NCBI RefSeq assembly: GCF_057098645.1
Contig: NZ_CM169472.1
Strand: one strand, 5' to 3'
Length of the DNA: 64,000 nt
Positions 36,725-39,606 of the stretch are shown here, in pieces (position 1 is the first letter of the stretch; each line of letters begins with the position of its first letter). The position numbers were made by a program.

Positions 36725-39606
36725 TGGTACGCGAGCTGGGTTTAGAACGTCGTGAGACAGTTCGGTCCCTATCTGCCGTGGGCGCTGGAGAACTGAGGGG
36801 GGCTGCTCCTAGTACGAGAGGACCGGAGTGGACGCATCACTGGTGTTCGGGTTGTCATGCCAATGGCACTGCCCGGTAGCTAAATGCGGAAGAGATAAGT
36901 GCTGAAAGCATCTAAGCACGAAACTTGCCCCGAGATGAGTTCTCCCTGACTCCTTGAGAGTCCTGAAGGAACGTTGAAGACGACGACGTTGATAGGCCGG
37001 GTGTGTAAGCGCAGCGATGCGTTGAGCTAACCGGTACTAATGAACCGTGAGGCTTAACCTTACAACGCCGAAGCTGTTTTGGCGGATGAGAGAAGATTTT
37101 TAGCCTGATACAGATTAAATCAGAACGCAGAAGCGGTCTGATAAAACAGAATTTGCCTGGCGGCCTTAGCGCGGTGGTCCCACCTGACCCCATGCCGAAC
37201 TCAGAAGTGAAACGCCGTAGCGCCGATGGTAGTGTGGGGTCTCCCCATGCGAGAGTAGGGAACTGCCAGGCATCAAATTACGAAGAATGGCAATGACCCT
37301 TGAGGCAGTTCACTACTCGATAGAGAGTAGGACAAAAGCGAAAGCTTTTGAACGTTGCGAAGCAACGGCCCGAAGGGTGAATCACGAAGTGATTCATAAA
37401 CTGCCAGGCATCAAATTAAGCAGTAAGCCGGTCATAAAACCGGTGGTTGTAAAAGAATTCGGTGGAGCGGTAGTTCAGTCGGTTAGAATACCTGCCTGTC
37501 ACGCAGGGGGTCGCGGGTTCGAGTCCCGTCCGTTCCGCCACTTATTAAGAAGCCTCGAGTTAACGCTTGAGGTTTTTTTTCGTCTGTATATCTATTATTG
37601 CCAGAATCGCAAAAATCCTCTGCATTTTACGCTCTTTTTCCTCAACAGTCTGAAGCCCATAATCACCTCAGTTAACGAAAATAGCATTAAAAGAGGCATA
37701 TTATGGCTATCCCTGCATTTGGTTTAGGTACTTTCCGTCTGAAAGACGACGTTGTTATTTCATCTGTGAAAACGGCGCTAGAACTTGGTTATCGCGCAAT
37801 TGATACCGCACAAATCTATGATAACGAAGCTGCCGTAGGTCAGGCGATTGCAGAAAGTGGCGTGCCACGTCATGAACTCTACATCACCACTAAAATCTGG
37901 ATTGAAAATCTCAGCAAAGACAAATTGATCCCGAGTCTGCAAGAGAGCCTGCAAAAATTGCGTACCGATTATGTTGATCTGACGCTAATCCACTGGCCGT
38001 CACCAAACGATGAAGTCTCTGTTGAAGAGTTTATGCAGGCGCTGCTGGAAGCCAAAAAACAAGGGCTGACGCGTGAGATCGGTATTTCCAACTTCACGAT
38101 CCCATTGATGGAAAAGGCGATTGCTGCTGTTGGCGCTGAAAACATCGCTACTAACCAGATTGAACTCTCTCCTTATCTGCAAAACCGTAAAGTGGTTGCC
38201 TGGGCTAAACAGCACGGCATCCATATTACTTCCTATATGACGCTGGCGTATGGTAAGGCCCTGAAAGATGAGGTTATTGCTCGTATCGCAGCTAAACACA
38301 ATGCGACTCCGGCACAAGTGATTCTGGCGTGGGCTATGGGGGAAGGTTACTCAGTAATTCCTTCTTCTACTAAACGTAAAAACCTGGAAAGTAATCTTAA
38401 GGCACAAAATTTACAGCTTGATGCCGAAGATAAAAAAGCGATCGCCGCACTGGATTGCAACGACCGCCTGGTTAGCCCGGAAGGTCTGGCTCCTGAATGG
38501 GATTAAGCCTCTCTGACAGCTCCTCCGGGAGCTGTTTTTACATGCTCGCTAAGGAAATCGATAAAAGCCCGGATGCGCGTACTTACCGCACGGTCGCTGT
38601 AATAGACTGCACTGAATGGCATTTCCACTGGCAACACTTTATCTGCCATTAACTCCACCAATTCTCCGCGAGCGATTTCTCTGTCGATCATATAGTCGGA
38701 CAAACACGCAATCCCGTTCCCACTCAGGCAAAGCTGTTTCAGTGTTTCCCCACTATTGGATGACAAACCGTACTTCACCTCATGTAATTGTCCATCGCTA
38801 CAGGCTATCGGCCAGGTATTGAGGGAAGCGGGTTCAGTGAATCCCAGGCAAACATGTTGCTTTAAATCGTCGATCGTTTCTGGCTTCCCGTAGCGGGAAA
38901 TATAATCGGGGGAGGCGATAATTTTTCGATAACTGTTAAATAACGGCCTGGCACGTAAGCTGGAATCCGTTAACGTACCAGCGCGTATCGCGACATCCAC
39001 TTTTCTTTCGATCAAATTAATAATCGTTTCGGAGGAGACTAGCGACAAAGTGACTTCCGGATAGCGTTCACGGAAAGGCTTAATTAACGGCATCAGAAAG
39101 TGCAGCACCACTGGAGTTGCGGCATCGATCCGTAACAGTCCACGCGGTGTATTACGCGTCTCCATAATTTCTGATTCTGCCGCTGCCATCTCCTGCAAAA
39201 TTGACTGTACGCGACGGAAATAACGCTCGCCTTCTTCCGTCAGGCTAAGTTGTCGCGTGGTCCGATTAAGCAGGCTAACGCCAAGTTTCATCTCCAGCTT
39301 TTTCACCGCCCGGCTTACCGCTGAGTTTGCTTGCCCTAATTGTTCCGCTGCCCGGCTAAAGCTGCCGCTTTCTACGACCGAAACAAAAATGGCGAGTTCT
39401 TCCGACGTGGCTTTCATTTTTGCTCCTGTTGCAAAATAGAAGAGATATTTTGAATTTATTTGTCATTAAACCATCAGGATGCGTGATATGTCATCCGATT
39501 TAATGTTCTCAATAATGAGCAAAATTCTGACCGGTGTAAGCACTTGCTTACATAACAATATACAATTGCTCGTTGAAAGAGTGAGCTAAAATCCCTATAA
39601 CAGTAG

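What the first reader, a model, noticed from the sequence alone, without database searches (positions are those of the whole stretch)
37261..37418. About 138-bp extra segment in the 5S to tRNA-Asp spacer, bounded by a 20-bp direct repeat of the 5S 3' end
AACTGCCAGGCATCAAATTA occurs twice (37261-37280 and 37399-37418). The second copy is followed by the short spacer that, by recollection, normally links 5S directly to tRNA-Asp. The intervening segment contains two hairpins (GTTGCGAAGCAAC and GAATCACGAAGTGATTC). It could be a remnant of recombination between rrn operons with different distal genes, a small inserted palindromic element, or a processed spacer RNA.
Basis: partly seen in the sequence, partly recalled or inferred. 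Interest (0 to 1): 0.3.

Follow-up and report, generated by a model that had tools for sequence, protein, structure and literature searches.

The report
RtT-like structured spacer after 5S rRNA
The extra 138 bases between the 5S rRNA and tRNA-Asp genes are real, but they are an unannotated copy of a known kind of folded spacer element (RtT-like, related to the stretch between the rrnB T1 and T2 terminators) that about one E. coli genome in ten carries here.

Summary
AACTGCCAGGCATCAAATTA occurs exactly twice (37261-37280, 37399-37418). The 5S to tRNA-Asp spacer is 190 nt, against 52 nt in K-12 rrnH. The difference is exactly one repeat plus 118 nt.

The segment is neither a new insertion nor a REP-like palindrome. 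It is a structured module found after 5S genes in many Enterobacterales. Its right half is homologous to the T1-T2 interval of K-12 rrnB, rrnA and rrnD, which is bounded by the same 5S-end repeat. Its hairpin cassette is shared with the RtT repeats of the tyrT operon. Rfam RtT scores 31 bits, below the 45-bit cut-off, but a model built from the 5S-type modules finds the tyrT repeats in return.

The stem that closes the fold pairs an antisense copy with a sense copy of the 5S 3' end. The hairpins show compensatory changes across genera. The module lacks the T1 terminator, which fits its position upstream of a co-transcribed tRNA.

In 5,426 complete E. coli genomes it sits at rrnH in about 560, at rrnC in 7 and at rrnD in 10.

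Excision as a stable RNA at duplicated RNase E sites is inferred and untested. I rate it a new member of a known kind, of low to moderate interest.

The parts
37154..37273 (+). 5S rRNA gene of an rrnH-type operon (16S, tRNA-Ile, tRNA-Ala, 23S, 5S, tRNA-Asp, then dkgB)
   Evidence: Rfam 5S_rRNA scores 93 bits at 37156-37271. The ends were read from the sequence.
37261..37285 (+). Direct repeat, copy 1: the last 13 nt of 5S plus the trailer CAAATTA (exact 20-mer 37261-37280; extended repeat to 37285)
37281..37303 (+). Variable linker at the left edge of the module. It occupies the position of the T1 terminator in the rrnB-type module and is poorly conserved between genera.
   Evidence: Alignments A1 and A2.
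37304..37318 (+). Left arm GGCAGTTCACTACTC, an antisense copy of 5S nucleotides GAGTAGGGAACTGCC (14 of 15 complementary). It supplies the 5' strands of the closing helix (37304-37310) and of hairpin P1 (37313-37318).
   Evidence: Inverted repeat I1. A reverse-strand BLAST match to every K-12 5S gene. Pair counts.
37325..37330 (+). GAGTAG, the 3' strand of hairpin P1. It is a sense copy of 5S GAGTAG (37253-37258).
   Evidence: 99.4% of cells are paired across 28 distinct sequences.
37333..37398 (+). Four-hairpin cassette: hp1 37333-37350 (GAAA loop), hp2 37353-37367 (GAA), hp2b 37368-37378 (GAA), hp3 37379-37395 (GAA), then CATA. It is shared with the rrnB, rrnA and rrnD T1-T2 intervals and with the tyrT RtT repeats.
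   Evidence: Alignment with rrnB. BLAST gives 32 of 33 identities to rrnB, rrnA and rrnD, and 82.6% over 46 nt to tyrT. Rfam RtT alignment. Covariation, with 6 of 7 hp3 pairs showing double changes. The MFE fold of 37304-37414 reproduces the structure at -47.1 kcal/mol.
37399..37423 (+). Direct repeat, copy 2: AACTGCC (37399-37405) is the 3' strand of the closing helix. AGGCAT plus CAAATTA repeats the 5S 3' end and its trailer, which is the inferred second RNase E site context.
   Evidence: The RNase E assignment is an inference from established 9S RNA processing.
37412..37463 (+). The standard 52-nt 5S to tRNA-Asp spacer, identical to K-12 rrnH and rrnC
37464..37540 (+). tRNA-Asp (GTC), the aspU equivalent
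   Evidence: ARAGORN and Rfam.
37552..37580 (+). Hairpin followed by T8, the likely operon terminator after tRNA-Asp
   Evidence: Read from the sequence. It is the same element as in K-12. The consensus scanner missed it.

Best explanation
The 138 bp are one unit of an RtT-like structured spacer element that belongs to the distal end of rrn operons.

Anatomy (shown). A core of about 100 nt (37304-37405) folds into a closed multi-hairpin domain. Its closing stem and first hairpin are formed by an antisense copy (37304-37318) pairing with a split sense copy (37325-37330 and 37399-37405) of the last ~20 nt of 5S rRNA. Between the two sense pieces lies a conserved four-hairpin cassette (37333-37398). 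The same cassette occurs in the T1-T2 interval of E. coli rrnB, rrnA and rrnD and in the RtT repeats of the tyrT operon. In tyrT the closing stem is built from the tRNA-Tyr 3' end instead. The second 'repeat of the 5S 3' end' is therefore an integral part of the element.

Variant (shown). This allele lacks the T1 terminator that fills the left half of the rrnB-type module. That fits its position upstream of a tRNA gene.

How it works (inferred). It is transcribed as part of rrnH. Both of its edges carry GGCAUCAAAUUA, the context of RNase E site b of 9S RNA, so it is probably cut out as a compact RNA of about 125-138 nt, as rtT RNA is released from the tyrT transcript. What that RNA does is unknown. 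It is dispensable at this locus.

Polymorphism (shown in pattern, inferred in mechanism). The long and short forms differ by exactly one repeat unit. This is consistent with loss by recombination or slippage between the 20-25-bp repeats, and with spread among rrn distal ends by gene conversion.
For: Repeat and spacer geometry.

Homology to the rrnB-type module: K-12 rrnB, rrnA and rrnD (after rrfF) have 5S, then CAAAT, the T1 module, AACTGCCAG[G/A]CATCAAAT, then T2. The right halves align, with hp1 and hp3 replaced by different hairpins. BLAST gives 32 of 33 identities. Model R1, built from window-type modules, scores rrnB 86, rrnA 85 and rrnD 79 bits.

RtT relationship: Rfam RtT aligns over the full model (1-130) at 37291-37413 with 31.3 bits and E 1.5e-4, and it pairs GGCAGU with ACUGCC in the position of the tyrT closing helix GGGAAGG/CCUUCCC. 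The bona fide tyrT repeats score 133-137 bits. Reciprocally, R1 finds all four tyrT repeats at 28-38 bits, E 1.7e-7 to 6e-5.

Structure: 97% of cells are paired across 28 distinct sequences. Ten pairs show compensatory double changes against 2.3 in shuffles (0 of 500 shuffles reach the observed value). Slid controls are 30-40% paired. The spacer folds with z = -6.6, and the core's MFE equals the proposed structure.

Distribution: the module lies after 5S and before tRNA-Asp, before tRNA-Thr plus a second 5S, or before a terminator in Citrobacter, Kluyvera, Klebsiella indica, Raoultella, Atlantibacter, Siccibacter, Pantoea, Brenneria, Rouxiella, Serratia, E. whittamii and others.

E. coli census: 573 of 5,426 genomes carry the segment. 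562 have it joined to 5S and tRNA-Asp, and it is contiguous with dkgB. 7 genomes have it at rrnC and 10 at rrnD. AR_0019 is a T1/window-type chimera.

No terminator: there is no run of five or more T in 37274-37463.
Against: - The Rfam RtT score is below the family's gathering cut-off (31.3 against 45 bits).
- The rrnB-type modules did not reach E <= 1 with the Rfam model.
- The closing helix shows no covariation inside alignment A2. The search pattern fixed its 3' strand, and the whole set was selected for two exact copies of ACTGCCAGGCAT, so modules with diverged repeats were not sampled.
- No expression or processing data were available. Co-transcription, RNase E cleavage at the second site and stability of the product are inferences.
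- About 90% of E. coli lack the module at rrnH with no known consequence, so any function here is weak or redundant.
- The MFE of the whole spacer pairs the linker differently from the comparative model.
Confidence: 0.72

Rival explanations
1. Neutral recombination scar. The segment is only what unequal recombination or gene conversion between rrn operons with different distal ends left behind. It is carried along with no role as RNA.
For: The module is missing from rrnH in about 90% of E. coli, including K-12. It moves between operons. Chimeras exist, such as AR_0019. Decayed fragments exist, such as the one after the second 5S of Klebsiella indica.
Against: The hairpins are kept by compensatory changes across several families of Enterobacterales. 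The cassette is also conserved in the tyrT repeats and gives a sub-threshold Rfam match to an Aggregatibacter sRNA family. The terminator-less allele is the one found upstream of tRNA genes. That pattern is not expected of a scar.
Confidence: 0.2
2. A recently inserted small mobile palindromic element (REP/BIME, ERIC or MITE-like) that landed in the spacer and duplicated its target.
For: The element is hairpin-rich and flanked by a direct repeat, and it is present or absent between strains. In K-12 rrnD both copies of the repeat carry the operon's own G-to-A variant, as a target duplication would.
Against: There are only 1-3 copies per genome and the located copies all follow a 5S gene. Rfam's REP-type family naRNA4 hits elsewhere in the window but not here. 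The 'target duplication' is part of the element's own closing helix, and the element carries an antisense copy of it. The same arrangement occurs in distant genera, so it is old. No transposase or terminal inverted repeats are present.
Confidence: 0.05
3. A decayed second 5S gene, left from a 5S-tRNA-5S arrangement of the rrnD type.
For: The segment ends with an exact copy of the 5S 3' end and contains GAGAGTAGG, as 5S does. rrnD-type operons do carry two 5S genes.
Against: The 5S covariance model matches only 37156-37271, even at E <= 10. Sense similarity to 5S is limited to about 20 nt, split by the cassette, and the sequence just upstream is antisense to 5S. In rrnD-type loci of other genera the module coexists with an intact second 5S.
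Confidence: 0.02
4. It encodes a small protein, as 'protein P' (tpr) is annotated inside the tyrT RtT repeat.
For: Mechanical ORFs overlap the segment, including a 146-aa ATG ORF at 37287-37727 and a 39-aa ORF on the minus strand.
Against: The long ORF runs through tRNA-Asp and the terminator. Substitutions between genera preserve base pairs, not reading frames, and indels are frequent.
Confidence: 0.01

Closest known systems
[quoted passage not shown]
   Same: It lies directly downstream of a stable-RNA gene in the same transcript. It ends in a copy of that gene's 3' end, which pairs with a complementary 5' segment to close a multi-hairpin domain. It shares the cassette core (GAACGTTGC...GCAACGGCCCGAAGGGTGA). 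The two kinds find each other in reciprocal covariance-model searches.
   Different: The host gene is 5S rRNA, not tRNA-Tyr, so the closing helix is GGCAGUU/AACUGCC rather than GGGAAGG/CCUUCCC, and the tail is AGGCAU rather than ACCACCA. There is a single copy instead of 3-4 tandem 178-bp units. The score is below the Rfam cut-off. Release as an RNA has not been shown.
The T1-T2 interval of E. coli rrnB (also rrnA and rrnD), the terminator block used in many cloning vectors
   Same: The boundaries are the same: the 5S 3' end plus CAAAT on the left, and AACTGCCAGGCATCAAATTAAGCAG on the right. The right half is homologous, with hp2 and hp2b nearly identical and hp1 and hp3 replaced by other hairpins.
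   Different: The left half carries no T1 terminator but has an intact antisense arm. The module is followed by the tRNA-Asp spacer, not T2. It is 138 nt per unit against 168.
AaHKsRNA22 (Rfam RF02902, Aggregatibacter sRNA 22)
   Same: Sub-threshold matches cover the hairpin cassette: 24.6 bits in the window and 31.5 bits in E. whittamii, against a cut-off of 39.8. This suggests a related cassette occurs in Pasteurellaceae.
   Different: All scores are below the cut-off, and the genomic context in Aggregatibacter was not examined here.
The short 5S to tRNA-Asp junction of K-12 rrnH and rrnC
   Same: 5S, the 52-nt spacer, tRNA-Asp and the downstream sequence are identical or nearly so.
   Different: It lacks the 138-bp unit and has one copy of the 20-mer instead of two.

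Membership tests
RtT RNA (Rfam RF00391) | Match to the family covariance model at or above the curated gathering score (45 bits) | tested here: not met
   31.3 bits, E 1.5e-4, full-length alignment 1-130 at 37291-37413. Modules of the same type in other genomes score 30-34 bits, and the tyrT repeats score 133-137 bits.
RtT RNA (Rfam RF00391) | Reciprocal similarity: a model built from this element type finds the bona fide tyrT RtT repeats | tested here: met
   Model R1, built from 29 5S-type modules, hits all four tyrT repeats at 27.6-38.2 bits, E 1.7e-7 to 6.3e-5. BLAST gives 82.6% over 46 nt, E 3e-8 in a small database.
RtT RNA (Rfam RF00391) | Lies immediately 3' of a stable-RNA gene, on the same strand and inside its transcription unit | tested here: met
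   It starts at the 5S 3' end and precedes tRNA-Asp and the hairpin+T8. Transcription itself is inferred.
RtT RNA (Rfam RF00391) | Ends in a copy of the upstream gene's 3' end, which forms the closing helix with a complementary 5' segment around internal hairpins | tested here: met
   Rfam consensus structure and alignment. Closing helix 99% paired, whole structure 97% paired, with 10 covarying pairs. Inverted and direct repeats. MFE fold.
RtT RNA (Rfam RF00391) | Released from the primary transcript as a discrete stable RNA | not testable with these tools
   No expression data were available. Only the duplicated GGCAUCAAAUUA context argues for it.
rrnB-type T1-T2 distal module | Bounded by the 5S 3' end plus CAAAT and by a downstream repeat AACTGCCAGGCATCAAATTAAGCAG | tested here: met
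rrnB-type T1-T2 distal module | Contains the T1 intrinsic terminator next to 5S | tested here: not met
   The left half is unrelated to T1. There is no run of five or more T in 37274-37463.
rrnB-type T1-T2 distal module | Homologous right half (GAGTAGGACAAA, hairpin, TTTGAACGTTGCGAAGCAACGGCCCGRAGGGTG, hairpin, CATA) | tested here: met
   (86, 85 and 79 bits for rrnB, rrnA and rrnD).
rrnB-type T1-T2 distal module | Followed by the T2 terminator | tested here: not met
   It is followed by the 52-nt spacer and tRNA-Asp.
REP/BIME-type dispersed palindromic elements | Many dispersed intergenic copies and a match to REP-type models | tested here: not met
   There are 1-3 copies per genome, and the located copies lie after 5S genes. 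Rfam naRNA4 hits 24458-24534 and 53663-53740 but not the segment.
5S rRNA gene or pseudogene | Extended collinear similarity to the 5S model | tested here: not met
   The only 5S match is 37156-37271, even at E <= 10.

The most novel reading that the evidence does not exclude
RtT-like modules may be a general class of 'hitch-hiker' RNA domains of stable-RNA operons. A conserved hairpin cassette would sit inside an antisense-plus-sense copy of the 3' end of whichever gene lies upstream (5S here, tRNA-Tyr in tyrT). The module would then borrow that gene's 3'-end processing signals, be excised in stoichiometric amounts with rRNA or tRNA, and track its host gene's sequence: in K-12 rrnD both the rrfF end and the module tail read CCAGACAT. 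The excised RNA could act as a read-out of stable-RNA synthesis, since rtT RNA has been linked to the stringent response. The T1-T2 block used in many cloning vectors would be a derivative of this class.
Probability: 0.2. Interest if true: 0.6.

Novelty: new member of a known kind. Interest (0 to 1): 0.3.

Why it matters
The finding explains a strain-to-strain length difference at the end of an rRNA operon that standard annotation leaves blank. RefSeq lists no feature under the segment, and the Rfam score is below its cut-off.

It also links three things usually treated separately: the RtT repeats of tyrT, the widely used rrnB T1-T2 terminator block, and a 5S-distal spacer module found across Enterobacterales. 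The common design is a hairpin cassette closed by a copy of the host gene's 3' end.

In practice the 138-bp polymorphism is a simple marker for rrn operon typing, and it is a caution for assemblers and primer design around 5S to tRNA-Asp. If the excised RNA proves stable, long-form and short-form strains make a natural experiment on its function. The result does not change any current view of rRNA biology.

Tried and rejected
- **Rfam at gathering thresholds:** searches of the region and of the whole window found nothing in the segment. Only the permissive search showed RtT.
- **RNAalifold on A2:** it paired the two repeat copies with each other through the TGCC.GGCA palindrome. I rejected this because copy 1 belongs to 5S helix I, and tested an explicit structure instead.
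- **Whole-spacer MFE:** it pairs the variable linker with the tail and with hp2b. Other genera do not support this.
- **Consensus promoter and terminator scan:** it returned nothing, and it also missed the obvious hairpin+T8 after tRNA-Asp, so I did not use it as evidence.
- **Other readings:** REP-like element, 5S pseudogene and coding sequence were considered and rejected.
- **Unrelated or unusable sequences:** two hits of the genome scan (L014 Luteolibacter, L029 Chloroflexi) are unrelated tandem repeats. The BS-04 allele (L008) looks like assembly error and was ignored.
- **Extra copies in flanks:** a search with R1 of 220 kb of flanking DNA from 29 loci found no further copies.
- **Literature:** searches for RtT linked to 5S or rrn operons found no statement of this relationship. 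Bosl and Kersten 1991 (PMC329039) is not held, so I could not check whether they noted it.
- **Not resolved:** whether the long form or the short form is ancestral in E. coli.
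Full report
**1. Observation**

The window carries an rrnH-type operon: 16S at 32169-33710, tRNA-Ile, tRNA-Ala, 23S at 34157-37061, 5S, then tRNA-Asp. dkgB follows at 37703.

The 5S gene is 37154-37273 and tRNA-Asp is 37464-37540, so the spacer is 190 nt.

AACTGCCAGGCATCAAATTA occurs exactly twice, at 37261-37280 and 37399-37418, with none expected by chance. The repeat extends to 25 nt at 92% identity.

K-12 rrnH has a 52-nt spacer that equals the sequence after the second copy. The window is K-12 plus exactly 138 bp.

**2. How common it is in E. 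coli**

| Location or count | Genomes of 5,426 |
|---|---|
| Internal 118 nt present | 573 (27 at >=99% identity, 546 at 95-99%) |
| 5S + segment + tRNA-Asp in one piece | 562 (this can include the 7 rrnC copies) |
| Upstream of aspT-trpT (rrnC) | 7 |
| Upstream of thrV (rrnD) | 10 |

- Sampled rows show the segment contiguous with dkgB, while short-form genomes start aligning exactly at the repeat.
- Carriers include O145:H28 (nearly identical to the window), O104:H4 and O111:H8.
- RefSeq annotates nothing under the segment.
- Strain AR_0019 has a chimera at rrnH: a T1-terminator left half joined to the window-type right half.

The module is therefore a polymorphic cassette exchanged among rrn distal ends.

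**3. Relationship to the rrnB terminator region**

I fetched the distal ends of all seven K-12 operons.

- rrnB, rrnA and rrnD (after rrfF) read: 5S, CAAAT, T1 hairpin, about 100 nt, AACTGCCAG[G/A]CATCAAAT, then T2. They have the same 5S-end direct repeat around a 168-nt unit.
- rrnH and rrnC go straight from 5S to the tRNA-Asp spacer. rrnG goes straight to a T2-like terminator, and rrnE to another terminator.

The right half of the window segment aligns with the rrnB interval: GAGTAGGACAAA, hairpin, TTTGAACGTTGCGAAGCAACGGCCCG[A/G]AGGGTG, hairpin, CATAAACTGCCAGGCATCAAATTAAGCAG. Two hairpins are replaced by different sequences that still form hairpins. BLAST gives 32 of 33 identities in the core.

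The left half differs. The window has no T1, and no run of five or more T anywhere in 37274-37463. That fits a module that must be read through to reach tRNA-Asp.

**4. Relationship to RtT**

A permissive Rfam scan gives RtT RNA (RF00391) over the whole model (1-130) at 37291-37413, with 31.3 bits and E 1.5e-4. This is below the 45-bit cut-off.

The genuine tyrT repeats of K-12 score 133-137 bits. Modules of the window type from other genomes score 30-34 bits.

In the Rfam alignment the window's GGCAGU...ACUGCC occupies the closing helix, which in tyrT is GGGAAGG...CCUUCCC. The latter is the copy of the tRNA-Tyr 3' end.

Reciprocally, a covariance model built from 29 5S-type modules gave these scores:

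| Target | Bits |
|---|---|
| rrnB | 86 |
| rrnA | 85 |
| rrnD | 79 |
| AR_0019 chimera | 115 |
| Four tyrT repeats | 28-38 (E 1.7e-7 to 6e-5) |

I conclude that the segment, the rrnB-type T1-T2 interval and the tyrT RtT repeats share one cassette. I do not file the segment as a curated RtT member, because it fails the gathering score. It is an RtT-like element.

**5. Anatomy**

- The left arm GGCAGTTCACTACTC (37304-37318) is the reverse complement, 14 of 15, of the 5S 3' region GAGTAGGGAACTGCC.
- A sense copy of that region follows, split in two: GAGTAG (37325-37330) and AACTGCC (37399-37405).
- The four-hairpin cassette (37333-37398) lies between the two sense pieces. All four loops are GAA or GAAA.
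- The core alone folds into exactly this structure at -47.1 kcal/mol. The whole spacer has z = -6.6 against shuffles.

**6. Comparative support**

A scan of one genome per species for two copies of ACTGCCAGGCAT 111-141 nt apart returned 31 loci. Of these, 29 are this module directly after a 5S gene. They come from Citrobacter, Kluyvera, Klebsiella indica, Raoultella, Atlantibacter, Siccibacter, Pseudocitrobacter, Phytobacter, Pantoea, Brenneria, Rouxiella, Serratia, Acerihabitans, E. whittamii and an E. coli. Downstream lies tRNA-Asp, or tRNA-Thr plus a second 5S, or a terminator.

On the alignment of 29 sequences (A2; it includes the window and omits the divergent Acerihabitans locus) I tested the named structure:

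- 97% of cells are paired.
- 10 pairs show changes on both sides, against 2.3 in shuffles (0 of 500 shuffles reach the observed value).
- Slid controls are 30-40% paired.
- hp3 varies on both sides at 6 of its 7 pairs.

There are two caveats. The search pattern fixed the 3' strand of the closing helix, so that helix shows conservation rather than covariation within this set. The set is also biased towards modules with intact repeats.

The wide distribution suggests that the arrangement 5S, module, tRNA-Asp is old. Whether E. coli rrnH lost it repeatedly or regained it is not resolved.

**7. Mechanism**

*Shown:* the homology, the fold, the lack of a terminator, the exact one-unit difference between long and short forms, and movement between operons.

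*Inferred from established knowledge of 9S RNA processing:* RNase E site b lies in AUCAA|AU just after 5S. Both edges of the module carry GGCAUCAAAUUA. The module is therefore probably excised as a compact RNA of about 125-138 nt, as rtT RNA is released from the tyrT transcript (Bosl and Kersten 1991, as cited in PMC4986893 and PMC3318445). RtT-family RNAs gave bands on Northern blots in Actinobacillus (PMC4986893).

The function of the product is unknown. For rtT, an effect on the response to amino-acid starvation has been proposed, but its mode of action is described as unknown (PMC7542023; bioRxiv 10.1101/2024.07.17.603846).

Absence from about 90% of E. coli rrnH operons shows the module is dispensable there.

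**8. Rivals**

- **Neutral scar.** Not excluded (0.2), but it fits poorly with the compensatory changes seen across families.
- **REP-like insertion, 5S pseudogene, coding sequence.** Rejected on copy number and context, on the Rfam results, and on the fact that the ORFs run through the tRNA.

**9. Verdict**

The finding is real and now explained. It is an unannotated, terminator-less allele of the 5S-distal RtT-like module, polymorphic in E. coli. I rate it a new member of a known kind, with interest 0.3.

The most novel reading still open is that such modules systematically copy the 3' end of their host stable-RNA gene to borrow its processing, and that they track its sequence. In K-12 rrnD both the rrfF end and the module tail read CCAGACAT. 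I could not find this stated in the held literature.

Noticed in passing
L005 (K-12 rrnD, minus strand; rrfF 424-543 and the stretch about 170 nt downstream of it): rrfF differs from other 5S genes by a compensating pair (5' TGTCTGG, 3' CCAGACAT). The copy of the 5S end after the T1 module carries the same G-to-A change. In E. whittamii (L042) the same variant 5S is followed directly by CAAATCAAGCG and T2, with no module. The module tail tracks its own operon's 5S, whether by conversion, by target duplication or by selection.
   Followed up: partly
L009 421-635 (E. coli AR_0019 rrnH): This is a chimeric module: a T1 intrinsic terminator (rrnD-like left half) is fused to the window-type right half, between 5S and tRNA-Asp. 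In this strain a strong terminator would precede aspU.
   Followed up: partly
L013 109-330 (Acerihabitans arboris): The direct repeat around the module extends well beyond the 5S end (ATTAAGACCCAATACCTTGAGCGCAGCGAGAGGCGTTG follows both copies). This looks like a tandem duplication of the kind seen in the 178-bp tyrT repeats. The cassette there is shortened.
   Followed up: no
L035 1040-1160 (Klebsiella indica, after the second 5S): A T1-type terminator is followed by only a fragment of the cassette (GTTGAACATTGCGTAGCAACGG), with no tail copy. This is a decayed module.
   Followed up: no
L008 (E. coli BS-04 rrnH): This module allele has many G-to-A changes and small deletions (94.7% identity). 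It is probably an assembly error rather than a real variant.
   Followed up: no
window 34041-34149: Rfam StyR-44 (120 bits) lies just upstream of the 23S gene, as is usual for enterobacterial rrn operons.
   Followed up: no
window 24458-24534 and 53663-53740: Two naRNA4 (REP-derived, CssrE) matches above the Rfam cut-off. These are ordinary REP-type elements unrelated to the finding.
   Followed up: no
window 45467-45543: A second tRNA-Asp (GTC) lies 8,003 nt after the first. By recollection this is the same spacing as aspU to aspV in K-12.
   Followed up: no
window 37552-37580: The hairpin GCCTCGAG...CTTGAGG plus T8 after tRNA-Asp has a G-T pair where K-12 has a perfect stem (CTCGAGG). The consensus terminator scan did not report it.
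   Followed up: no
window 37166-37168 (5S positions 13-15): The 5S gene reads GGCGGCCTTAGCGCGG where K-12 rrfH has GGCGGCCGTAGCGCGG. This is a single-base 5S variant of this lineage.
   Followed up: no
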